From the UHGV virus genome UHGV-0090146: 13,371 nucleotides of DNA; one strand, given 5' to 3'. The position numbers were made by a program, and so were the translations under genes. Source of the stretch: a virus. How positions within the stretch are numbered: the stretch's first letter is position 1; each line of letters starts with the position of its first letter. The notes beneath the pieces were generated by a model. The model was given only the letters and a program-made list of their open reading frames with translations, did not search any database and was not told the origin of the DNA. This document shows positions 2,348 through 12,341 of the stretch, one piece after another.

Positions 2348-4261
2348 ATGGCTACCACACCAACCAATAAACCAATTCCGTCAGAAGACCCTCGTGACCT
2401 GAAATTTAATGCCGGAAAGATTGACGAGGTAGTGACATCTGACGCGCATTACTACACCGACCGCTTCGGTGTGCGCCGCTGGACAATTGCTGGATTTCAG
2501 CACACCGCAGAAGAAGCAATCAGTAACTATGGATACATTACGATGGACAGCTTCGAAGATGGTGCGACACTGACGCTACCTAATCAGGTTTTGCGTTATG
2601 AGGCAACTGGAGAATATTACCGTTGGGATGGTGAGTTTCCTAAAACCGTTTCTGTAGGTTCTACCCCTGAAACTGCTGGCGGTATTGGGATTGGCGCGTG
2701 GGTTAGTGTTGGCGATGCGTCATTGAGGCATGAACTTGAAATCACAAGCGCTATTCCTTTTGTAAGGCCAGAAAATTTCGGTGGTGTAGGTGATGGAGTG
2801 ACGGATGATACAAATGCAATAAAAGCTGTTATAGCAACTGGGAAACCAATTTCTTTAGTAGGTAAAAAGTGGCTAATAACATCTACCATAGAATTTCCTG
2901 ATGGATATGCTGTTGATGCAAGGTCGTCAGAAATAGTTGCGGACACAGGCTCTGCACCTATCTTCCTTTTTAAGGGTAATAATCTTGGTATGCATTTCAC
3001 AGGCTCATTAGTGAGAGGGACTGCTGGTGCATTCATGAAGTTGGAAGGCCAGACAGATGCGCCTACAGCAAGCAATCAATATGCTAAATTATTAAAACTT
3101 AGTGGTGTCCATATCTCCTCGGCAACTATAGATGCCGCTCTTATTTTCGATAAGGCAGTACGAATAATATTCATTGATAGTTGTGTGTTCTTTTGCAGAA
3201 ACGGAATAATTAGCAATGGTAAGTCTGTAGAGATTACCATTCAAAAATCAGTTATATACGGTGCCACGAGTGATACTGATACTTCTGGTATAAAAATAAC
3301 AAGTTCAGGTGGTGCAAGCAAGTACAGTGAGGGGTGGCATATTTCAGACTGCACAATAGATAATTTCGAAAATACAATTGATCTATCCGATATATTTGTA
3401 TTCACCTTAAATGGTGGCTACACGGCATGTAATTCTAATACCGGATATGCTATTACCGTGCGCGGACCGACTACAACAACTCACTGTCGAGATCTTTATT
3501 TTAACGGCATGTTTGGCGGTAAAATTCGCTTCCTTGACCAAACTGCTGGTCCTGTAACTATGCATGCCAGGATAACAGGAGAACTCCTGTTCACTAAGGC
3601 AGGAACGTGTCTTGCTATTGGGGCAAACATGGCGGCAATTGATATCAGCAACTTAAAGATTGTATCTGCAACGCCTGGTAACACTGCCATCTCTGTAGCG
3701 AACGGGAGTGCCAATATTAATATCCGTGGGATTAGTACAGATGCAACTCTTGGGGCAGGGATTATATTTAATGGGGAGTCAGGCAGTAACTGCTCGATTT
3801 CTGATTTTTCATATTCTGGTTCTGGAGAGGCTTTATCACTTGCTAGGCCAGTTAAGCTTTCCAACGTTCCTACAGTTGGTAGCGAAACTTTGAATTGGTC
3901 AATAAAGTACGATTATGTATCTGCATCAAAAGATGTTGCAGTTGGGTCTTACATAAATCAACTGCAAATGACTATTGCAAGATATAGCAAGATTAAGATT
4001 AATATTAACCTCGCATATTCAGGTGGGGCAGCAAGCAATTCTCAAGTTATTGGAATAACAGTCCCTACTGGGGTGGTTCTGCCAAATGGTACGAACTCGA
4101 TGCAGTTCACATTACCAGCAACTGCTGGAACATTAACTATGAGCATTGATGCAACAACAACGCTAGACTTCAAGAATCTGTCATTCAGCATCGATAACAG
4201 AGCTGGTAACCAACTGCGTATTTTGGCCGGCTCTCACTTGTCTGTATCTTTAGATAATTAA
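2348..4261 (+). CDS. Tailspike / tail fiber with pectate-lyase-like right-handed beta-helix (probable polysaccharide depolymerase, receptor-binding protein)
   Basis: 637-aa ORF with AAGGAG at 2331-2336 upstream of ATG 2348. Motif FGGVGDGVTDDTNAIKAVIATG is typical of the Pectate_lyase_3 / beta-helix N-cap (established family signature). The first ~130 aa form a separate N-terminal domain. A terminator follows. Confidence 0.85.
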   Translation: MATTPTNKPIPSEDPRDLKFNAGKIDEVVTSDAHYYTDRFGVRRWTIAGFQHTAEEAISNYGYITMDSFEDGATLTLPNQVLRYEATGEYYRWDGEFPKTVSVGSTPETAGGIGIGAWVSVGDASLRHELEITSAIPFVRPENFGGVGDGVTDDTNAIKAVIATGKPISLVGKKWLITSTIEFPDGYAVDARSSEIVADTGSAPIFLFKGNNLGMHFTGSLVRGTAGAFMKLEGQTDAPTASNQYAKLLKLSGVHISSATIDAALIFDKAVRIIFIDSCVFFCRNGIISNGKSVEITIQKSVIYGATSDTDTSGIKITSSGGASKYSEGWHISDCTIDNFENTIDLSDIFVFTLNGGYTACNSNTGYAITVRGPTTTTHCRDLYFNGMFGGKIRFLDQTAGPVTMHARITGELLFTKAGTCLAIGANMAAIDISNLKIVSATPGNTAISVANGSANINIRGISTDATLGAGIIFNGESGSNCSISDFSYSGSGEALSLARPVKLSNVPTVGSETLNWSIKYDYVSASKDVAVGSYINQLQMTIARYSKIKININLAYSGGAASNSQVIGITVPTGVVLPNGTNSMQFTLPATAGTLTMSIDATTTLDFKNLSFSIDNRAGNQLRILAGSHLSVSLDN

Positions 4262-4302: not shown

Positions 4303-4803
4303 TCAGAATGGAATGTCGTCATCGAAGTCCATCGGAGGCTCATTTCCTCCTTGTGGGCTTTGTTGTTTTGGTTGCTGCTGTTGCGGTGTTCCCCATCCTC
4401 CTTGAGGTTGCTGTCCTGATTGCTTGCGTGATTGTTGCTGACCAGAATCATCGCGCTTGCCGCCAAGCATCTGCATGACGCCACCCATCTGTGGAATGAC
4501 AATCTCAGTGGTATATCGGTCTACGCCGTTGCTGTCAGTCCATTTGCGAGTGCGAAGCTGACCTTCGATATAAACCTGCGAGCTTTTGTGAAGGTATTCT
4601 CCTGCAACTTCCGCAAGTTTCCCGAAAATGACTACGCGATGCCACTCTGTCTGTTCTTTCTTTTCTCCTGTCTGCTTGTCTTTCCACTGCTCAGATGTTG
4701 CAACGGAAAGATTGGCAATAGCAGAGCCAGATGCAGAATATTTAACTTCCGGATCGTTACCGAGAGTGCCGACAATAATTACTTTATTTACGCCGCGTGC
4801 CAT
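4303..4803 (-). CDS. ssb: Single-stranded DNA-binding protein
   Basis: 166 aa, near-collinear with E. coli SSB: [49 protein letters not shown], a Gly/Gln/Pro-rich linker and the acidic C-terminal tip [20 protein letters not shown] 9 nt upstream. Confidence 0.95.
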
Positions 4804-4806
4804 TTA

Positions 4807-5847
4807 TTAAAATCCTTCAATTGGAGTTGGTTTATGTTCGATTTTCGCTTCTTCCTGCGGTTCTGGCTGCTGTGGTTGCGGTTTAGCCAGTTTGGCAGGG
4901 TTGAAATTATCCTGCGGAGTTATTACCACAGGAGATAATTGCTCATCATTGATGAAAGACTCAATGCGATCGTATTCTGCAGCAGAAGCAGCCAGAGAAG
5001 GCCAGATTGCGCGAATCTTATCTTTCAGGTTATCAGGTATTGATTTTGCTTCTTCCTTCAAGCCTTCCATGCCTTTTGCGGCGGAAAGCTGAAGTCGTGA
5101 GCGCCATGACTCAAATTCTTCGTCAACTTTAACGCCAGAGTCCACCCATTTGATGAGTCCGCGACCGTGAGCCTCTCCAATATACCCATGACGAACGCTT
5201 TCACGACCAGATTCAAAGAAGATTGGGCGTAGCTCTTCTGGTAATTTGGTAAACTCCTGAATTTTGCCCCCATCGTGCATCATCATGCTCACGGTCATTT
5301 CGAACATGAAGTCTTTCTCGCACACTGGCTGCAACCCCAGCGATACAGGCTCCTTCGGATTTGCGAAGTCAGTTTTCTGGCGAGCACGAAGACATACGAT
5401 GATATGCATATTGCTTTGCAGCATAGCATTCATGAACTTCTTGTGTTCAGCTTTGGCACGCTTCCAGTCAGCCATTTTTTTTCCGTTAAGCAGAGGCTTT
5501 TCAGCAATCTCAGTGCAACTTCCTTCTCCTTCCCATTCGTGCGAGCCAGAATCAATAACAAGGACCTTAACGCCAGCAGCCTGAAACTCTTCAATGGCCT
5601 GACGGTAGCGAGCCGGGCTGAATGGAGCATACATATCAGCGTGCAGGAATTTACCATCAAGGATGTTTGAATACAGACGACCGCGACCGTTTTCAGTATC
5701 AAGGAATCCGATTTCTTCTGGTGAGTCAACCATCCCGCGAGCCAGCTTAAGTGCGCTATATGTTTTTCCGCTACCAGACTGACCGGAAATACCGATGACC
5801 ACGCGAGAACCTGAACGCTCTGCTGGTTTAATATTGAGAATACCCAT
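4807..5847 (-). CDS. RecA-fold / AAA_24 (Sak4-like) ATPase, probable recombination mediator
   Basis: Walker A GISGQSGSGKT near the N-terminus and Walker-B-like KVLVIDSGS. Pro/Gln-rich C-terminal tail. ORF extends to 5856 (GTG), but ATG at 5847 has the best spacing to a GAGGTG RBS. Stop lies 3 nt before the ssb start. Confidence 0.6.
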   Translation of the reverse strand: MGILNIKPAERSGSRVVIGISGQSGSGKTYSALKLARGMVDSPEEIGFLDTENGRGRLYSNILDGKFLHADMYAPFSPARYRQAIEEFQAAGVKVLVIDSGSHEWEGEGSCTEIAEKPLLNGKKMADWKRAKAEHKKFMNAMLQSNMHIIVCLRARQKTDFANPKEPVSLGLQPVCEKDFMFEMTVSMMMHDGGKIQEFTKLPEELRPIFFESGRESVRHGYIGEAHGRGLIKWVDSGVKVDEEFESWRSRLQLSAAKGMEGLKEEAKSIPDNLKDKIRAIWPSLAASAAEYDRIESFINDEQLSPVVITPQDNFNPAKLAKPQPQQPEPQEEAKIEHKPTPIEGF

Positions 5848-5864
5848 TTGCATCACCTCACTAA

Positions 5865-6821
5865 TTATAAATTAAATTGCTTCTTGAACCATTCAGGCGT
5901 TTCCATTTCGATGACAGGATTACCCATTGAATAACCCGGCCACGAATTAGCTTTTTTGCACGCCTTGTAAATTTCCATTGCACCATTCAACTGAATGCGA
6001 CCGATTCGTAATTGCTCTTCAGTCAAACGAATCAAAGCAGGAATGAACGGCGCTTTCTTTTCCTGCACGAGAAGATTCACAGAGCGTGGAGCGTGGCCGT
6101 ATGCCGCAACAAACATATCGTGTTGCATAGCCATTTTCATAAAGTAGCCAAGTCGCGCAGCATGACGGAAAAACTCATCAGGCTTTGCGCTAACTGCCGT
6201 TTTGTAGTCAATGATGTCACCACCTTTTGTCAGGCAGTCAAAACGAACCTTTGCCTTTTCTCCGTAAAGCTCACCGAGGATTGACACTTCAGCGTAAGCT
6301 CCGGCAAGAAGACTGCTGTAATAGCTGTTTGCGTGGATTACAGCGCGCATTTGCTGAATAGCGTCGTAGTCACCACCTTCGAGCATTTTCTTTCCTGCCG
6401 CAGCTTTTTCAGCTTCTTCACGGATGACATCGTAAATCTTCACTGGTTCGCCAGTTGCACGAATGATTTTGACCACCTCAGTTTTAGACTTCCCTGAGAG
6501 TCCTTTGATGCCTCGTTCTTTCGCCCATGAATTCATATCAGCAGTAGTTACCAGTACCGTGGGTTTTCCATCTTTGTCTTTTGGAAAATCATCTACAACT
6601 GGCATACGAGCATATTCAGCATCGAAACGTTCAGGTTCAAGCAGAGCTGTATGGCTTCCTGTGCCGAAAATTAGGGCTTTTGACTGCTCATCTTCTTCGT
6701 CTTTGTAGCGCCAAGCTGCGGGACATCTGTCATAAATGTTCCACAGGCCAGAACCATTAATATGCTCGGTGTCGGCGTGGTATTGCTCATTGGTTAATTC
6801 ATTATTGAAATAGACTTTCAT
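5865..6821 (-). CDS. PD-(D/E)xK family nuclease (RecE/Cas4-like exonuclease candidate)
   Basis: ORF to 6833 (GTG); ATG at 6821 is preceded by GAGG at 6-nt spacing. Contains RFD...GDIIDYKT, consistent with a D...(D/E)xK nuclease core. Lies between the ATPase and VRR-NUC genes. Confidence 0.55.
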   Translation of the reverse strand: MKVYFNNELTNEQYHADTEHINGSGLWNIYDRCPAAWRYKDEEDEQSKALIFGTGSHTALLEPERFDAEYARMPVVDDFPKDKDGKPTVLVTTADMNSWAKERGIKGLSGKSKTEVVKIIRATGEPVKIYDVIREEAEKAAAGKKMLEGGDYDAIQQMRAVIHANSYYSSLLAGAYAEVSILGELYGEKAKVRFDCLTKGGDIIDYKTAVSAKPDEFFRHAARLGYFMKMAMQHDMFVAAYGHAPRSVNLLVQEKKAPFIPALIRLTEEQLRIGRIQLNGAMEIYKACKKANSWPGYSMGNPVIEMETPEWFKKQFNL

Positions 6822-6858
6822 TGTTAACCTCACTCATCATCACGTAAATGAATCTACA

Positions 6859-7284
6859 TCAATCCACATCAAAAGGCAAGCCAAAATAGAAAAGCGTGGC
6901 TTTTTTTAGTTCATCAAGTCCGTAAGCGATGGCGGCATAATGACCAAGCCTGCACATCTCAGTTAACACGGACGATTGCTCCTTGCTCACCCTGCTTTTG
7001 CTTTTGTCACGTCGCTTTGACTCAATCATCCCGCAACTGTGCTTCACTCCCGGCGTCATTATCACATTGTCGCCTATTCCAGTCTTAACACCCATCTTCT
7101 GGCGCTTCAGCACAAACTGCACCCTGCTTGATGTACCAGTTTCGTTTGGCACATGAAACCACAGAACATCAGGGAAGCGATGTTGCATCCATGTACCGTA
7201 ACCCATCTGGTCAGTCTCTTCTTTCGGACACTCCCCACGATAACCGCTATCAAACACCCATATACCACTGTCAAGCTGCTTCAC
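6859..7284 (-). CDS. VRR-NUC domain nuclease
   Basis: 141 aa with WFHVPNETG ... GIGDNVIM ... MIESK, matching the VRR-NUC / PD-(D/E)xK pattern. GTG start preceded by AGGAG with 6-nt spacer. Overlaps the helicase 3' end by 14 nt. Confidence 0.65.
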   Translation of the reverse strand: MKQLDSGIWVFDSGYRGECPKEETDQMGYGTWMQHRFPDVLWFHVPNETGTSSRVQFVLKRQKMGVKTGIGDNVIMTPGVKHSCGMIESKRRDKSKSRVSKEQSSVLTEMCRLGHYAAIAYGLDELKKATLFYFGLPFDVD

Positions 7285-9196
7285 TTTGTTCTCCTGTGAA
7301 ATCTTTTCTGTGGATTATATCTCGACCTTTATCATTAATACGATGCGTGATGCGTTTTGGCGCTTTAATCAACCCTGCATACATCATGAACTGTTTGGCG
7401 TTCTGGCATTTCAGGATTTTCCCAGCTATTGATTTATCATCAAGGTGAGGAAAGACCGCCTTTGCCTTGAACATGTTTTTCATGTGAGTTGCGCCGCCAT
7501 AAGGGTAGAAAACTTCATTAGCCCAGCCTTCTTTGCCATCACAACGGTTAATCCAGTAGCGATATAAAATTCCCTCTCCGTCCTTCGTCAACTGGACTTT
7601 GAAGTCCATAACATCAGCCCATTCGTTGTCGGTATACGCGCGTTCATTCAGTGCCGCATTCGGGTCGCGCAAAACATGATCGCAATGTCGACAATAACGC
7701 GCCGTTGGGTCGTTTTTAGTGCCGCAACCATCATCAAAAATGCGTATTCCGTGCTTATCGAAGCCGCAACGAATGTAACTGAAAAACTCCTCGCAACGAC
7801 CATCTGGCGATAGTGGGTCTTTTCCTATGCAGCGGCGCGCATATGGGCTGTTCATTGTTCCACATGTGTGACACGGAACTTGTTCGCCACTGCGTTTTGA
7901 ACGTTGTGCTTCGGCTTCTTCAAGAATTGGGTCTTCATATAGCTGACCAAGCTCAAACATCGTTCCTGAGAAATCAAGAACCAGATGGTCTTCTTTATGA
8001 TACCCGGCATCAATTTGTTCTTTCTTCAGCAGGCGCATTCCGCGGCCAAGCAACTGAACAAGAAGGGTGAGTGACATTATTTTTCGTAATATGCAGCTCG
8101 TATCCCATAACGGTATATTTACGCCAGTTGTAAGTGCGGCTATCTGGAATGTGAATTTTTTGCGCCCGGTGTATGCATCTTTTAGAGCCTTCCTTCTGGC
8201 TTTTGACCCCATATCTTCTGTAACTATTGAATAACTCCCTTCTGGTAGGTATTTTGCCGCCTCCTGACAATGTTTTTTACCAGCACATGTAATCAGTACG
8301 CCGTTTCTGTTTTTAGTCAACTCCATAACCTTGAGCATGATTTTCTGCGTCAACGTACCTTGCTCAAGAATTTCTTTTTGCATCTGCTTGAGCTGCTCGG
8401 AGGTAAAGTCCTGAGTGCCATCAACATCTGAACCATGAAAATCTGAAAGGTCATAATGCAGACTATCAACATCATGAAGACCAAAAATTGTTGGCACAAG
8501 AAAACCGTTTTCAACCATGTATTTGGTGTCTATGTTGATAATCTCCTTCTTCCAGAAAGCGCCTTTTATTGATGTAGTTCCGCGAAACGGTGAGCCTGTA
8601 TAACCTATTATTCTCAACTCATGGCCGTGCTTATCTTTGCACCTTTTCATTAGCTCATTAATTATCACTGCATACTGCGTATCACCATTATTAACAACAT
8701 CAATGTCATTAACCATATGATTTTCATCGATAAGCAGGAATCTTGGGCAAAAGTCAGAGAGCGCACCTTTTGCAATAACATTCCCTGACTCATCCTTTTT
8801 ATCAAACAAAGCATTTATAACAGTACCCTCAGAACCACAGATTATTGGATAAGTAGAACTTTTCCTACCCAACGAAGCACTGAATAGCGAGTTTCTAACA
8901 CCAAGTGACCATAGCTCTTCCGCATCTTGCTCCACTATTTCGCCCTGTCTTGATAAAATCATCCCTGAATAGCCCATTTCCTGAAAACGTTTTGCTATCA
9001 TGGCAATCATCAGGGACTTTCCACTACCGACACTTGCTGTTACATAGCTTGGTCCAACATAATGTCGTATCACATCACCTGTTAACTTATATATCAACCA
9101 CTGATATGGTCTTGGCTCGATATCACCAGTATCCAAGCAAGATTTCAGCAAGTTAATGTCAATCTCTGAAATCATTTTGTCTATTTTATGCGTCAT
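7271..9196 (-). CDS. SF2 (DEAD/DExH-box) DNA helicase with Cys-rich C-terminal zinc-ribbon region
   Basis: 641 aa with Walker A TASVGSGKS, DExH-like LLIDENH and an arginine-finger-like LLGRGMR. Cys cluster CHTCG...RRC...GRC...RCG...DDGCG...YCRHCDH follows. ATG at 9194-9196. Confidence 0.85.
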   Translation of the reverse strand: MTHKIDKMISEIDINLLKSCLDTGDIEPRPYQWLIYKLTGDVIRHYVGPSYVTASVGSGKSLMIAMIAKRFQEMGYSGMILSRQGEIVEQDAEELWSLGVRNSLFSASLGRKSSTYPIICGSEGTVINALFDKKDESGNVIAKGALSDFCPRFLLIDENHMVNDIDVVNNGDTQYAVIINELMKRCKDKHGHELRIIGYTGSPFRGTTSIKGAFWKKEIINIDTKYMVENGFLVPTIFGLHDVDSLHYDLSDFHGSDVDGTQDFTSEQLKQMQKEILEQGTLTQKIMLKVMELTKNRNGVLITCAGKKHCQEAAKYLPEGSYSIVTEDMGSKARRKALKDAYTGRKKFTFQIAALTTGVNIPLWDTSCILRKIMSLTLLVQLLGRGMRLLKKEQIDAGYHKEDHLVLDFSGTMFELGQLYEDPILEEAEAQRSKRSGEQVPCHTCGTMNSPYARRCIGKDPLSPDGRCEEFFSYIRCGFDKHGIRIFDDGCGTKNDPTARYCRHCDHVLRDPNAALNERAYTDNEWADVMDFKVQLTKDGEGILYRYWINRCDGKEGWANEVFYPYGGATHMKNMFKAKAVFPHLDDKSIAGKILKCQNAKQFMMYAGLIKAPKRITHRINDKGRDIIHRKDFTGEQSEAA

Positions 9197-9271
9197 AGCA
9201 ACTAACCTTTGTTGATGTTTCTACGTCAGTTAGCTTATACTCAATCTACACCAACAATCAAGGGTCAATTT
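9197..9271. promoter_or_regulatory. Divergent intergenic control region between helicase (-) and primase (+)
   Basis: 75-bp gap between divergent starts. Plus strand has TTGATG (9212-9217), 18-nt spacer, TATACT (9236-9241). A weaker candidate exists on the minus strand. Confidence 0.3.
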
Positions 9272-10225
9272 ATGAGATACGACTGGAAGGACATTGAACC
9301 AAAAATGCTCGGAAATTGGCAAGCTGCCATCATGTCTATCGTCAATGTGGATAGCAGAGTTTTCAATGGCAAGCACCAGCCATGCCCGTCATGCCTTGGC
9401 AAAGACAGGTATCGTTTTGATGATAACTTCGAAACAAAAGGCGATGGCGGAGCAATCTGCAACCAGTGTGGTTCCGGAAGCGGAATGAACTGGCTGATGA
9501 GACTATCCGGAATGAGCTTTCCTGAAGCACTGGAGGCGCTGGGAGGATTCCTGAACATGCACCCTCGCGAAAAGCTGGAGGCAATCAGGAAGGAACTACC
9601 GAAGATAAATCACAACGATGACTTCATCACCGAGCAGGAAGTCGCCGCGATCATGGCTAAAACGACTTGTGTCGCGATGAGTGAGTGGACGCTGATAAAT
9701 GGTATTGGTTGCGACATTAACGTCGTCAGAGGTAAATCCAGAGAGCTTATTGCGGTTGAGATGATGCGCTCTGACACAATGAAGCCATGCAACGTGGCAT
9801 TCATTGGCATGGGTGGTGATTCATTCAAAACTTTTTTCCGCGCAGGATACAACAAGTACTCAGCCATCAACGGTAAACTCACGCGCGGCGCGATAAGCCC
9901 AATCGGAGAAGATAACGGAAAGTTCATTTACCTGGTATCTGATTATGCAGATGCGTGGAAATGCCATTACTTCACTGGTGCGCATGTCTGGTGCTGCTGG
10001 TCGCCGGAAAACATGTGGGAAGTGGTGCGCTCTGTTAGCGATGAGGTGAAAGCGAGGTTGCGCTGCATAGTTAATTATAAATTCGACGAGCTGTGCGCCG
10101 CAGAGAATGCAGGCCTTCCGGTGATGCTTCCTGATGATGCTGACACTATCAGGATGGCAAAGAGAATCATGAGAAAGATTTATGACGCTGGCGAGTTGAT
10201 AGAAAAAATGTCAGTCAGCAGATAA
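9272..10225 (+). CDS. DNA primase (N-terminal zinc-ribbon; Toprim-like core inferred)
   Basis: Zinc-binding signature CPSCLGKDRYRFDD...GGAICNQCGSGSGMNWL, typical of phage/plasmid primase N-termini. AAGGG RBS 7 nt before ATG 9272. The track ORF begins at 9209 but would overlap the helicase start and candidate promoter. Confidence 0.65.
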   Translation: MRYDWKDIEPKMLGNWQAAIMSIVNVDSRVFNGKHQPCPSCLGKDRYRFDDNFETKGDGGAICNQCGSGSGMNWLMRLSGMSFPEALEALGGFLNMHPREKLEAIRKELPKINHNDDFITEQEVAAIMAKTTCVAMSEWTLINGIGCDINVVRGKSRELIAVEMMRSDTMKPCNVAFIGMGGDSFKTFFRAGYNKYSAINGKLTRGAISPIGEDNGKFIYLVSDYADAWKCHYFTGAHVWCCWSPENMWEVVRSVSDEVKARLRCIVNYKFDELCAAENAGLPVMLPDDADTIRMAKRIMRKIYDAGELIEKMSVSR

Positions 10226-10228
10226 AGG

Positions 10229-10253
10229 AAACCCTCCGATTGGAGGGTTTTTG
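10229..10253. terminator. Bidirectional rho-independent terminator between convergent primase and minus-strand operon
   Basis: Hairpin CCCTCC-GATT-GGAGGG (10232-10247) flanked by AAA on one side and TTTTT on the other. Confidence 0.75.
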
Positions 10254-10670
10254 TTATTCATTGAACTCTGGCGCTTGAGTCCAGAAGGCTACATTTCGCA
10301 GCGACTTACCCGTGTGATTGCACCAGTATATTCCTGAGTCATCATACTTGGCAGTAACCTTGACTCGATCAGCATCAATAATAACAACCTCCTGCCCATC
10401 ATTAGGGTCGAAAAGACGCGCATCTTTCCAGTTAGCAATCTCATTAAGGGAAAGAAGCACATAACCGGGAAGATAAGCTTCGACATCAGCGATGTGAACT
10501 ATTGTTCGCTCCGCTCTCTCTCCTGTGTAGTCTCCATTCCACTCATAAAGAATAATCGTGTCTCCAACCTTAAAATCACGATCGTTCTTTCTTAGCTCCG
10601 CCTTCTTGTGTCCGGTAACTACAGGCCAGAAGTGTTCAGGTAAGATTTTTAGTTCGTGTTTTTTGCTCAT
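10254..10670 (-). CDS. ASCH / DUF3850-like (PUA-fold) domain protein with C-terminal extension
   Basis: N-terminal MSKKHELKILPEHFWPVVTGHKKAELRKNDRDFKVGDTIILYEW fits the DUF3850/ASCH pattern as recalled. ATG at 10668-10670 has GAGGA 8 nt upstream and lies 1 nt from the stop of the upstream 65-aa gene. The in-frame extension to 10700 is less likely. Confidence 0.6.
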   Translation of the reverse strand: MSKKHELKILPEHFWPVVTGHKKAELRKNDRDFKVGDTIILYEWNGDYTGERAERTIVHIADVEAYLPGYVLLSLNEIANWKDARLFDPNDGQEVVIIDADRVKVTAKYDDSGIYWCNHTGKSLRNVAFWTQAPEFNE

Positions 10671-10671
10671 T

Positions 10672-10869
10672 TCAAACATCCTCATAACACCAATATGCAA
10701 CGCAAATTATTTCAACCAAATCATTTGATGATAAAAATTTATTACCATCATAAATTGCGTGAATTCTTTCACCATCAACAGTTAATGCCATAACATTTCT
10801 TCCTATCTGCGGACGCCAGAGATAGCAATCAAACCATTCAACATCATACCAATCATCTTCTGGACTCAT
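10672..10869 (-). CDS. Hypothetical protein (65 aa), translationally coupled
   Basis: ATG overlaps the stop of the 491-aa gene (ATGA) and is preceded by GAGGT. Its stop lies 1 nt before the ASCH gene start. No recognisable motif. Confidence 0.55.
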   Translation of the reverse strand: MSPEDDWYDVEWFDCYLWRPQIGRNVMALTVDGERIHAIYDGNKFLSSNDLVEIICVAYWCYEDV

Positions 10870-12341
10870 TTCAACCTCGGATTTATGTGCACAGTGTTTC
10901 CGATAAATACGCAGTAACCATCCTCTTCAAGTGATGGCAATACACTTGACCTGAGGCGGTCGTAAATTTTAGGTATTCCTTTGAATGGCCTAACATTTTT
11001 AAGTGAATCATAAAGCCACTTTACCGTTACGTTTGTTTTTCCTTTCTGAGCGGCAGAGCGTAGCTTTTCGGCAACAACATCAAATTCAGAACGCTCGCCA
11101 GCATATCCATTTGATTCCACGGCGTCGGTGAATGTTTTTGTCAGTGCGTCATAAACGCTGATAGCGCGACTAATTTCATTTTCACAGATAATTTTTGACC
11201 TCTTTCCTCCATCACACCAGTTTTCAGCAGCGTGAAATATTGCTGCCAGGCGGATTATTTGCTTATCAGCTTTACCCATTGCACCACGAAGAAGAACATG
11301 GTCCCACTTACCGCCTGGAAGGAAGTTTTTCTCCCACTGGTTTCGCAACATGCCGATCATTCTTGCTGAATCATTGTGAAGAGTCAGTCTTGTTTTTTCT
11401 GCTGACACAACATTATGTATAAATCTTGCATATTCCGACCTCAAGCTGTCTGGCATTGGCTTGCTTACAGGGCAGTCATTAACCATGTCCCAGTGTTCGC
11501 GATAGCCAAGCATTGATTGCTCGCGCAACATCAGGAAACGTTCAGAAAGACCGTTCCCCCTGTCGCCAGCGGCAAGAATGGCATCAATACTTTCATCCTG
11601 CGCAATCACACTTATGTTTCCAAGCACGTAACCAGATGAAACGCCACGACCAACACGAGCAGAGCCAATGAATCCTCCATCCCAGCCCTTCAGGATGACT
11701 TCGGCGTTTGCCTTTCCACCTTCTTTTCCGTAAGAGAGGCCAAGGCATGTGTTAAGGACGCTTGCCTCGTCACTTATCAGGTTAAAAAACCCACCTTCAT
11801 GGATGGCCTGATGCTGAACAGCCTCCGGCGTTGCGTCCGTCAGTGGATATGTAATCGTATAAAGCTCTTCCAGCTTCTCCTTTTCCCGAGCAATATCATC
11901 GCCGATTAGTGCCTTTGCATTCTGATTACTGGCCTCTTTATATGCCTTCATCAACTCTTCAATGCGAAGATTTATTTTTATGATCTGCTTTTCCATCTTT
12001 TTGGAAAGATTGTCATATTCAATCTTCACCGGATTCATGTGCATTGAGTTGATGGCGGTTTTCCCTGCTGATGGAGGCTGAGAAGTAACCACGTAAAGAG
12101 AAACTGGAAGTTCTGAATGGTAATACTCAACGCTAAAGTTTCTCGTCATTGCGCTGGCAACGCACCCAAGCAAATGCATGAACGATGTATTTATTGGGAA
12201 CTGAACGGCACGAGCTGCAGCGATTGCATAACGAGACAGCAAATCAGTCCGGTGCTCACTGGTAAGTTCTGTTTCTGAGTACGTTACATCACGCTCCTTA
12301 CCTTCCTTGATGTCAAGCCACATATTTGAGCTTGGTGTCAT
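10866..12341 (-). CDS. Hypothetical protein (491 aa) with degenerate P-loop NTPase-like motifs; possible DUF3987-like replication-associated protein
   Basis: Long ORF with SQPPSAGKTA (GKT, P-loop-like) and, about 90 aa later, FNLISDEAS (hydrophobic stretch plus DE, Walker-B-like). No canonical SD before ATG 12341 and an alternative Met at 12323, so the start is uncertain. Family assignment is from memory only. Confidence 0.8.
   Translation of the reverse strand: MTPSSNMWLDIKEGKERDVTYSETELTSEHRTDLLSRYAIAAARAVQFPINTSFMHLLGCVASAMTRNFSVEYYHSELPVSLYVVTSQPPSAGKTAINSMHMNPVKIEYDNLSKKMEKQIIKINLRIEELMKAYKEASNQNAKALIGDDIAREKEKLEELYTITYPLTDATPEAVQHQAIHEGGFFNLISDEASVLNTCLGLSYGKEGGKANAEVILKGWDGGFIGSARVGRGVSSGYVLGNISVIAQDESIDAILAAGDRGNGLSERFLMLREQSMLGYREHWDMVNDCPVSKPMPDSLRSEYARFIHNVVSAEKTRLTLHNDSARMIGMLRNQWEKNFLPGGKWDHVLLRGAMGKADKQIIRLAAIFHAAENWCDGGKRSKIICENEISRAISVYDALTKTFTDAVESNGYAGERSEFDVVAEKLRSAAQKGKTNVTVKWLYDSLKNVRPFKGIPKIYDRLRSSVLPSLEEDGYCVFIGNTVHINPRLK

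What the first reader, a model, noticed from the sequence alone, without database searches (positions are those of the whole stretch)
7680..7880. SF2 helicase carries a dense Cys/His cluster (probable tandem zinc ribbons) followed by an extra C-terminal domain
After the helicase motifs comes CHTCG-x13-C-x11-C-x8-C-x13-CG-x10-CRHCDH, then about 140 aa with no motif I recognise. Such insertions in replicative helicases often mediate primase or DNA-structure recognition. The primase is divergently encoded next door, which suggests a split primase-helicase system.
Basis: seen in the sequence. Interest (0 to 1): 0.4.

Follow-up and report, generated by a model that had tools for sequence, protein, structure and literature searches.

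The report
Phage RadD-type helicase, double zinc ribbon
The cysteine cluster is real and is the already-described pair of zinc ribbons of the RadD DNA-repair helicase family, followed by the RadD C-terminal domain, in a phage copy that sits in a recombination gene block rather than acting as the primase's replicative helicase.

Summary
The 641-aa minus-strand ORF 7271..9196 carries eight Cys at aa 442-505 (window 7682..7873), followed by a 134-aa tail.

It is not a new insertion. In a family alignment the eight Cys match one-to-one the eight zinc ligands seen in E. coli RadD crystals (ZF1 C384/387/411/425; ZF2 C434/437/448/451). They are kept in 114-117 of 120 divergent homologs. The His residues are not conserved.

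The tail is the RadD C-terminal domain:
- the NCBIfam RadD model aligns to profile position 565/573;
- hhalign gives probability 93.7%;

The protein scores 180 bits against a 720-bit equivalog cutoff, so it is a distant phage member of the family, not an ortholog. The one local peculiarity is an 11-residue expansion of the first ZF2 knuckle (C477-x13-C491), shared with T1-like relatives.

The "split primase-helicase" reading is not supported. In distant relatives the primase is operonic with, or fused to, a DUF3987 helicase, and the window has one at 10866..12341. The RadD-like gene instead travels with VRR-NUC, RecE-like/YqaJ exonucleases and a Sak4-like ATPase.

Most likely it is a branched-DNA motor of the phage recombination module. 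This is ordinary and largely already annotated.

The parts
7271..9196 (-). RadD-family SF2 ATPase/helicase gene (641 aa including M1; some relatives are annotated from the internal Met8)
   Evidence: phmmer to E. coli RadD 6jde E=9.2e-32; NCBIfam heli_RadD_YejH E=6.3e-53; Foldseek 7r7j E=3.7e-36
8477..9130 (-). RecA-like domain 1 (about aa 23-240): Q32, Walker A K60, motif II D157-E158-N-H160
   Evidence: ResIII match at aa 26-165. Q32, K60, D157, E158 and H160 are conserved in 92-100 of 104 homologs and align to RadD Q9, K37, D117, E118 and H120
7937..8401 (-). RecA-like domain 2 (about aa 266-420), with motif VI QLLGRGMR (R388 = RadD R343)
   Evidence: Helicase_C at aa 290-388, E=2.4e-7; R388 invariant in 104/104
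7793..7873 (-). Zinc ribbon 1 (ZF1): C442, C445, C456, C468 = RadD C384, C387, C411, C425
   Evidence: family MSA with E. coli RadD; conservation 114-117/120; RadD ligands from PMC9049331; model pLDDT 86-96
7682..7768 (-). Zinc ribbon 2 (ZF2): C477, C491, C502, C505 = RadD C434, C437, C448, C451
7727..7765 (-). Clade-specific expansion of the first ZF2 knuckle (aa 478-490, GFDKHGIRIFDDG), making C-x13-C where most of the family has C-x2-C
   Evidence: Spacing is x12-15 in 78 of 82 related phage loci. Among 50%-identity representatives it is x2 in 77 and x13-16 in 12. Model pLDDT about 84-92
7274..7669 (-). RadD-type C-terminal domain (aa 510-641): three long beta strands plus three helices, OB-fold-like
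6859..7284 (-). VRR-NUC-type nuclease gene immediately downstream; its listed GTG start overlaps the helicase end by 14 nt
   Evidence: phrog_824. The homologous CDS is annotated 'VRR-NUC domain' in PP213477. Helicase/VRR_NUC adjacency recurs in L006, L007 and L091 and in most of 78 viral loci
5865..6833 (-). RecE-like PDDEXK exonuclease (DUF3799)
   Evidence: PF12684 E=7.8e-25; phrog_412 'exonuclease VIII'
4807..5856 (-). AAA_24 / Sak4-like RecA-fold ATPase (annotated 'recombinase' in relatives)
   Evidence: PF13479 E=4e-12; phrog_124 'Sak4-like' E=2.4e-9
4303..4803 (-). Phage SSB ending in MDFDDDIPF, the same nine residues as the E. coli SSB C-terminal tail
   Evidence: PF00436 E=2.4e-37; translation; E. 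coli SSB-Ct sequence quoted in PMC10238739
9272..10225 (+). DNA primase, divergent from the helicase (the mechanical ORF starts at TTG 9209; the ATG at 9272 matches the 954-nt CDS of relatives)
   Evidence: Zn_Ribbon_Prim E=7.7e-12; phrog_510 E=3.7e-80
10866..12341 (-). DUF3987 helicase, the more likely helicase partner of the primase
   Evidence: PF13148 E=5.4e-35; phrog_2373 'DNA helicase' E=6.7e-186; primase-DUF3987 operon in L087 and Prim-Pol/PriCT_2/DUF3987 fusion in L092

Best explanation
The gene encodes a phage member of the RadD (YejH) family of SF2 ATPases. Its layout is two RecA-like motor domains, then two consecutive four-cysteine zinc ribbons, then the RadD-type OB-like C-terminal domain.

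By homology, each group of four Cys binds one structural Zn. Together with the CTD, the two ribbons form the surface that grips branched or forked DNA, while the motor domains hydrolyse ATP to move or remodel the branch.

The gene sits in a co-oriented block: SSB, Sak4-like RecA-fold ATPase, RecE-like exonuclease, VRR-NUC nuclease, RadD-like motor. I infer that the protein acts on recombination or replication-restart intermediates of the phage genome. The proposed sequence is resection by the exonuclease, annealing or strand invasion by the Sak4-like protein with SSB, branch migration by the RadD-like motor, and resolution by VRR-NUC. It would not be the replicative fork helicase.

Shown here: family membership, domain architecture, ligand conservation and gene linkage. 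Inferred: zinc binding in this protein, branched-DNA binding, the branch-migration role and the partnership with the Sak4-like protein and SSB.
For: Sequence homology: phmmer to E. coli RadD 6jde/7r7j gives E=9.2e-32. The NCBIfam RadD model gives E=6.3e-53, aligned over aa 29-627 against profile positions 4-565 of 573.

Structure: the AF2 model has pLDDT 91.9. Its Foldseek top hits are all eight RadD chains at E about 1e-32 to 1e-36; the next family, HsdR, is at 1e-13.

Zinc ligands: the eight Cys align one-to-one with RadD's eight crystallographic Zn ligands (PMC9049331). They are kept in 114-117 of 120 representatives of 28-49% identity.

Catalytic residues: K60, D157/E158 and R388 are conserved.

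What is known of E. coli RadD: the ZFD and CTD bind branched DNA (PMC9821108), and RadD accelerates RecA strand exchange (PMC8887467 abstract).

Gene linkage: VRR-NUC lies immediately downstream in most of 78 viral loci. In distant homologs (26-43% identity) the neighbours are DUF3799, AAA_24, VRR_NUC, YqaJ or PDDEXK_1.

SSB: the phage SSB carries the exact E. coli SSB-Ct tail, which stimulates RadD ATPase (PMC10238739). Two of the three SSB-pocket arginines are kept (R44, R195).
Against: The protein scores 180 bits against a curated RadD equivalog cutoff of 720. Overall identity to E. coli RadD is about 27%, and 18% in the CTD. Function therefore need not be the same.

The RadD residues shown to matter for branched-DNA binding (R428, K488) are F471 and D539 here, and the SSB-pocket residue R49 is Q72.

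The two published studies disagree on where SSB binds RadD: RD1 pocket in PMC10238739, CTD in PMC9821108.

The divergent primase/helicase pair is conserved in the window's clade and in T1-like phages. The T1/TLS literature assumes these two proteins initiate replication (PMC11447400).

No biochemical data exist for any phage member; a search for 'RadD-like' with 'bacteriophage' found nothing.

Zn coordination geometry could not be measured because model coordinates are not exposed by the tools.
Confidence: 0.75

Rival explanations
1. The first reader's view, also the conventional T1/TLS annotation. The SF2 helicase is the phage's replication helicase and works with the divergently encoded primase as a split primase-helicase. 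The zinc cluster and CTD would mediate primase or origin/DNA-structure recognition.
For: The primase lies about 75 bp upstream on the opposite strand. The divergent primase/helicase arrangement is conserved in essentially all of 78 related viral loci, including T1-like contigs at 43-46% identity. The phage encodes no DNA polymerase in this window. The TLS paper proposes that primase and helicase initiate replication (PMC11447400).
Against: The fold and family are RadD, a two-RecA-domain SF2 enzyme, not an SF3/SF4 ring helicase. No unwinding has been detected for E. coli RadD (PMC10238739, PMC9821108). A separate DUF3987 helicase is present at 10866..12341. In L087 the primase overlaps DUF3987 by 4 nt in one operon, and in L092 Prim-Pol, PriCT_2 and DUF3987 are a single protein, while the RadD-like gene in those loci sits next to DUF3799 or YqaJ/AAA_24. 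Of the eight informative distant contexts, a primase is seen within the stretch only in those two.
Confidence: 0.15
2. The protein is a RecQ-like or RecG/UvsW-like bona fide helicase. It would unwind or regress forks on its own, independently of any recombinase, with the ZF1 beta-hairpin acting as a strand-separation pin.
For: [quoted passage not shown] The phage protein keeps all ATPase motifs. From general knowledge, phages encode SF2 branch-migration helicases such as T4 UvsW.
Against: No RQC, HRDC or winged-helix match appears in Pfam. No RecQ chain is among the top 50 Foldseek hits. Unwinding has never been seen for RadD itself (PMC9821108).
Confidence: 0.1

Closest known systems
E. coli RadD (YejH), PDB 6JDE / 7R7J / 8H5Y / 8H5Z
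   Different: Identity is about 27%, and the score of 180 bits is far below the 720-bit equivalog cutoff. There is a 13-residue deletion between the first ZF1 knuckle and its third Cys (x10 versus x23). There is an 11-residue insertion inside the first ZF2 knuckle (C-x13-C versus C-x2-C). The DNA-binding residues R428 and K488, and the SSB-pocket residue R49, are not conserved. The gene is phage-borne and embedded in a recombination module rather than standing alone on the chromosome.
Helicases of T1-like phages (Drexlerviridae, e.g. TLS Gp58) and of Caminolopintovirus/Roufvirus-type siphophages
   Same: These are the same gene in the same position: divergent from the primase and followed by VRR-NUC. 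They are 43-98% identical and share the expanded ZF2 knuckle (x12-15). Some GenBank records already call it 'putative DNA repair helicase RadD'. (PMC12845203)
   Different: Nothing essential differs. The window's copy is 99% identical to a database cluster (P0001). The flanking recombinase type varies between clades (Sak4-like here; no AAA_24 homolog detected in the T1-like loci).
RecQ-family helicases
   Same: Both are SF2 cores followed by a Cys4 zinc-binding element and a C-terminal nucleic-acid-binding domain. RadD is assigned to the RecQ-like subgroup (PMC9049331).
   Different: RecQ has one Zn site, not two, followed by winged-helix (RQC) and HRDC domains. None of these is detected here, and no RecQ chain is among the 50 best Foldseek matches.
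Primase-helicases (T7 gp4 type; Prim-Pol/PriCT_2/DUF3987 fusions)
   Same: A zinc-ribbon primase is encoded next to a helicase gene.
   Different: In those systems the helicase is a single-RecA/P-loop ring enzyme fused or operonic with the primase. Here that role fits the DUF3987 protein (10866..12341), not the RadD-like SF2 enzyme.

Membership tests
RadD (YejH) family of SF2 ATPases | SF2 core with Q-motif, Walker A, DExH and motif VI | tested here: met
   Q32, K60, D157-E158-N-H160 and R388 align to RadD Q9, K37, D117-E118-C-H120 and R343, and are conserved in 92-104 of 104 homologs. Helicase_C and ResIII hits.
RadD (YejH) family of SF2 ATPases | Two consecutive Cys4 zinc ribbons after RecA-like domain 2 (ZF1 C384/387/411/425; ZF2 C434/437/448/451 in E. 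coli) | tested here: met
   One-to-one alignment of C442/445/456/468 and C477/491/502/505. Each Cys is kept in 114-117 of 120 representatives. ZF2's first knuckle is expanded to x13. Actual zinc binding was not measured.
RadD (YejH) family of SF2 ATPases | RadD-specific C-terminal domain | tested here: met
RadD (YejH) family of SF2 ATPases | Score above the curated NCBIfam equivalog cutoff (orthology with bacterial RadD) | tested here: not met
   179.9 bits versus a cutoff of 720. The protein is a distant family member, not an equivalog.
RadD (YejH) family of SF2 ATPases | SSB-Ct binding pocket framed by R21, R49 and R145, with SSB-stimulated ATPase | tested here: inconclusive
   R21 maps to R44 and R145 to R195, both kept; R49 maps to Q72. 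The phage SSB has the MDFDDDIPF tail. Binding cannot be tested here, and the published binding sites conflict.
RadD (YejH) family of SF2 ATPases | Accelerates recombinase-mediated strand exchange, with no autonomous unwinding | not testable with these tools
   Biochemical property (PMC8887467, PMC9821108).
Replicative primase-associated helicase (split or fused primase-helicase) | Ring-forming single-RecA/P-loop helicase domain (SF3/SF4 type) | tested here: not met
   Two RecA-like domains of SF2 type; the best structural matches are RadD, HsdR, Dicer/RIG-I-like and Snf2 motors.
Replicative primase-associated helicase (split or fused primase-helicase) | Fusion or operonic coupling with the primase across relatives | tested here: inconclusive
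   The divergent adjacency is conserved in the window's clade and in T1-like loci. In distant relatives, however, the primase is coupled or fused to DUF3987 instead, and six other contexts show no primase nearby.
RecQ family | Single Zn-binding subdomain followed by RQC winged helix (and often HRDC) | tested here: not met
   No RQC or HRDC Pfam hit; two Zn ribbons instead of one; no RecQ chain among the 50 best Foldseek hits.

The most novel reading that the evidence does not exclude
The phage carries a self-contained analogue of the bacterial RecA-RadD-SSB axis. In it, the RadD-like motor speeds branch migration for the Sak4-like RecA-fold protein rather than for RecA, is recruited through the host-mimicking SSB tail, and hands junctions to the adjacent VRR-NUC nuclease. 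This would drive recombination-dependent replication in a phage that has no polymerase of its own. The 11-13-residue hairpin inserted into the first ZF2 knuckle, specific to this clade and T1-like phages, would be an added junction- or partner-contacting element.
Probability: 0.3. Interest if true: 0.45.

Novelty: new member of a known kind. Interest (0 to 1): 0.2.

Why it matters
The finding corrects a common annotation habit. In T1-like and related siphophages the 'DNA helicase' next to the primase is a RadD-family recombination/repair motor. The likely primase partner is the separate DUF3987 helicase.

RadD's mechanism in bacteria is still unclear. A compact phage version, sitting in a defined module with an exonuclease, an annealase, SSB and a junction nuclease, could be a convenient system for working out what RadD-type motors do.

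Beyond that, the zinc cluster and C-terminal domain are known features of a structurally characterised family.

Tried and rejected
1. The pairwise phmmer alignment to RadD suggested that the counterpart of RadD C434 was missing and that H482 replaced C425. This would have meant an unusual Cys3/His site. The 106-sequence family alignment and the family-wide spacing pattern show that this was a mis-registration: all eight Cys correspond, and the His residues are not conserved.

2. PDB sequence searches with the DUF3987 protein, the primase and the VRR-NUC protein gave nothing usable.

3. The search for related loci with the 105-sequence alignment failed for lack of a conserved stretch. It worked with a 23-sequence alignment.

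5. Literature searches for a studied phage RadD-like protein found only annotation-level mentions. The Avs paper mentioning helicases concerns RecA-type primase-helicases, not this protein.

6. The promoter scan of 6700..10400 found no more sites than shuffles do (6 versus 7.0 +/- 2.4), so it supports no claim about divergent promoters.

7. RecQ membership was considered and rejected.

Full report
**What is there.** The window is a piece of a ~47-kb siphophage genome of the Caminolopintovirus/Roufvirus-like group that infects Salmonella and Escherichia. It is about 90% identical in nucleotides over 70-80% of its length to phages HC6, ST1UNAM, IME207 and STGO-35-1.

The finding lies in the minus-strand ORF 7271..9196, which encodes 641 aa. 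Translation gives Cys at 442, 445, 456, 468, 477, 491, 502 and 505, with codons at 7682..7873. The spacing is C-x2-C-x10-C-x11-C-x8-C-x13-C-x10-C-x2-C, and 134 residues follow H507.

Eight of 17 Cys within 64 residues is reached by only 474 of 100,000 shuffles of the protein.

**What it is.** A sequence search of the PDB gives one real hit, E. coli RadD (6JDE/7R7J/8H5Y/8H5Z), at E=9.2e-32. The NCBIfam RadD model matches at E=6.3e-53 over aa 29-627 against profile positions 4-565 of 573, that is, the whole length including the tail. The score is only 180 bits against a curated cutoff of 720.

An exhaustive HMMER search of 1.84 billion cluster representatives found 2,716 relatives, 101 of them at E<=1e-30. 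In 120 near-full-length representatives that are 28-49% identical to the query, each of the eight Cys is kept in 114-117 sequences. H443, H482, H504 and H507 are not conserved.

The family-wide pattern is CxxC-x10-C-x(8-35)-C-x8-CxxC-x10-CxxC.

I fetched E. coli radD and added it to a 106-sequence alignment. The eight Cys then fall exactly on RadD C384, C387, C411, C425 and C434, C437, C448, C451. The 2022 crystal structure shows these to be the ligands of two zinc ions, a variant ribbon ZF1 and a classical ribbon ZF2 (PMC9049331).

The earlier pairwise alignment had mis-registered the middle Cys and briefly suggested a Cys3His site. The family alignment removes that idea.

**The C-terminal ~134 aa.** This region is not an unknown domain.
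- Profile-sequence comparison of the phage-family C-terminal alignment with E. coli RadD residues 455-586 gives 93.7% probability, E=1.9e-7, over 122 columns.
- The full-length model (pLDDT 91.9) hits all RadD chains at E about 1e-32 to 1e-36, while the next family (HsdR) is at 1e-13. The TM-score of about 0.5 with 14 A rmsd indicates the same domains in a different relative orientation.

**Differences from E. coli RadD.**
- Overall identity is about 27%, and 18% in the CTD.
- ZF1 lacks 13 residues between its first knuckle and its third Cys.
- The first knuckle of ZF2 is expanded from CxxC to C477-x13-C491.
- That expansion (x12-15) is present in 78 of 82 related phage loci, including T1-like contigs. 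Among the 50%-identity representatives it is present in only 12, against 77 with the canonical x2. It is a clade feature, modelled with pLDDT about 84-92.
- The catalytic residues are conserved (K60, D157/E158, R388).
- Of the three arginines that frame RadD's SSB-Ct pocket, two are kept (R44, R195) and one is not (Q72).
- The residues shown to matter for branched-DNA binding in E. coli RadD (R428, K488) are F471 and D539 here.

**Context.** Downstream on the same strand lie four genes:
- a VRR-NUC nuclease (6859..7284);
- a RecE-like PDDEXK exonuclease (5865..6833);
- an AAA_24/Sak4-like ATPase (4807..5856);
- an SSB (4303..4803).

The SSB ends in MDFDDDIPF, the same nine residues as the E. 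coli SSB tail that binds and stimulates RadD (PMC10238739).

Upstream and divergent is the primase (9272..10225). It is followed by a bidirectional terminator, an ASCH gene and a DUF3987 helicase (10866..12341).

In 78 viral loci with a 43-98% identical helicase, the arrangement primase (divergent), helicase, VRR-NUC is nearly universal.

In more distant relatives (26-43% identity) the conserved neighbours are recombination proteins:
- L004: DUF3799;
- L005: DUF3799 and AAA_24;
- L006: AAA_24 and VRR_NUC;
- L007 and L091: VRR_NUC;
- L089: PDDEXK_1 and PIF1;
- L087: DUF3799;
- L092: YqaJ and AAA_24.

A primase is present in only two of these. In L087 it overlaps a DUF3987 gene by 4 nt in one operon. 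In L092 Prim-Pol, PriCT_2 and DUF3987 are fused in a single 733-aa protein. This gene-fusion evidence points to DUF3987, not the RadD-like enzyme, as the primase's helicase.

**How it most likely works.** Shown: family, architecture, ligand conservation and linkage.

Inferred: each Cys quartet holds a structural zinc. The ribbons plus the OB-like CTD bind branched DNA, as shown for the E. coli ZFD and CTD by truncation and EMSA (PMC9821108). The motor uses ATP to move branches.

E. coli RadD shows no autonomous unwinding but accelerates RecA strand exchange (PMC8887467). By analogy, the phage enzyme probably accelerates branch migration of intermediates made by the Sak4-like RecA-fold protein with SSB. 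Sak4 is a RecA remote homolog stimulated by its cognate SSB (PMC5928155). The adjacent VRR-NUC would then resolve the junctions.

The rival reading is that this is the replication helicase working with the primase, as assumed for TLS (PMC11447400). It is kept alive by the conserved divergent pairing. It is disfavoured by the fold, by the presence of DUF3987 and by the fusion evidence.

**Novelty.** The double zinc ribbon and the CTD are published features of RadD. Several GenBank records and one typing paper already label the phage gene 'putative DNA repair helicase RadD' (PMC12845203). No experimental work on a phage member was found.

The finding is therefore a new, distant, phage-borne member of a known kind with a small clade-specific knuckle insertion. 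I score interest at 0.2.

Noticed in passing
window 4303..4803 (-): The phage SSB ends in MDFDDDIPF, identical to the last nine residues of E. coli SSB. This tail is the docking peptide for host SSB-interacting proteins, so the phage SSB could recruit host factors as well as the phage RadD-like protein.
   Followed up: partly
window 10866..12341 (-); L087 2970..5404; L092 11626..13827: DUF3987 helicase. In a distant phage it overlaps a Zn_ribbon_DnaG primase gene by 4 nt, and in another it is fused with Prim-Pol and PriCT_2. This suggests that the window's real split primase-helicase pair is the primase (9272..10225) plus DUF3987, although here the two are convergent and separated by an ASCH gene.
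   Followed up: partly
window 10227..10252: An 11-bp-stem GC-rich hairpin with T-runs on both strands lies exactly between the convergent primase and ASCH genes. It looks like a bidirectional intrinsic terminator.
   Followed up: no
window 7271..7284: The listed GTG start of the VRR-NUC ORF overlaps the end of the helicase ORF by 14 nt. In relatives the two genes abut within 1-10 nt. This is consistent with translational coupling.
   Followed up: no
window 4803..4807, 6833..6859 and 9196..9272, compared with L001 (PP213477): Mosaic differences from close relatives. ZCEC08 has an HNH endonuclease between the SSB and recombinase genes, a 91-aa gene between the exonuclease and VRR-NUC genes, and an 87-aa gene between the helicase and primase genes. 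All three are absent from the window.
   Followed up: no
window 4807..5856 (-): The AAA_24 protein is 349 aa, and Pfam covers only aa 19-168. Lopes et al. (PMC2896510) accepted only proteins shorter than 290 aa as Sak4. This protein therefore has an uncharacterised C-terminal extension of about 150 aa, and the 'Sak4-like' label is tentative.
   Followed up: no
window 2348..4261 (+): The tailspike has a conserved Tail_spike_N head-binding domain, but its receptor-binding part is only weakly pectate-lyase-like. The relative ZCEC08 carries an endo-N-acetylneuraminidase at the same position, which is a typical host-range cassette swap.
   Followed up: no
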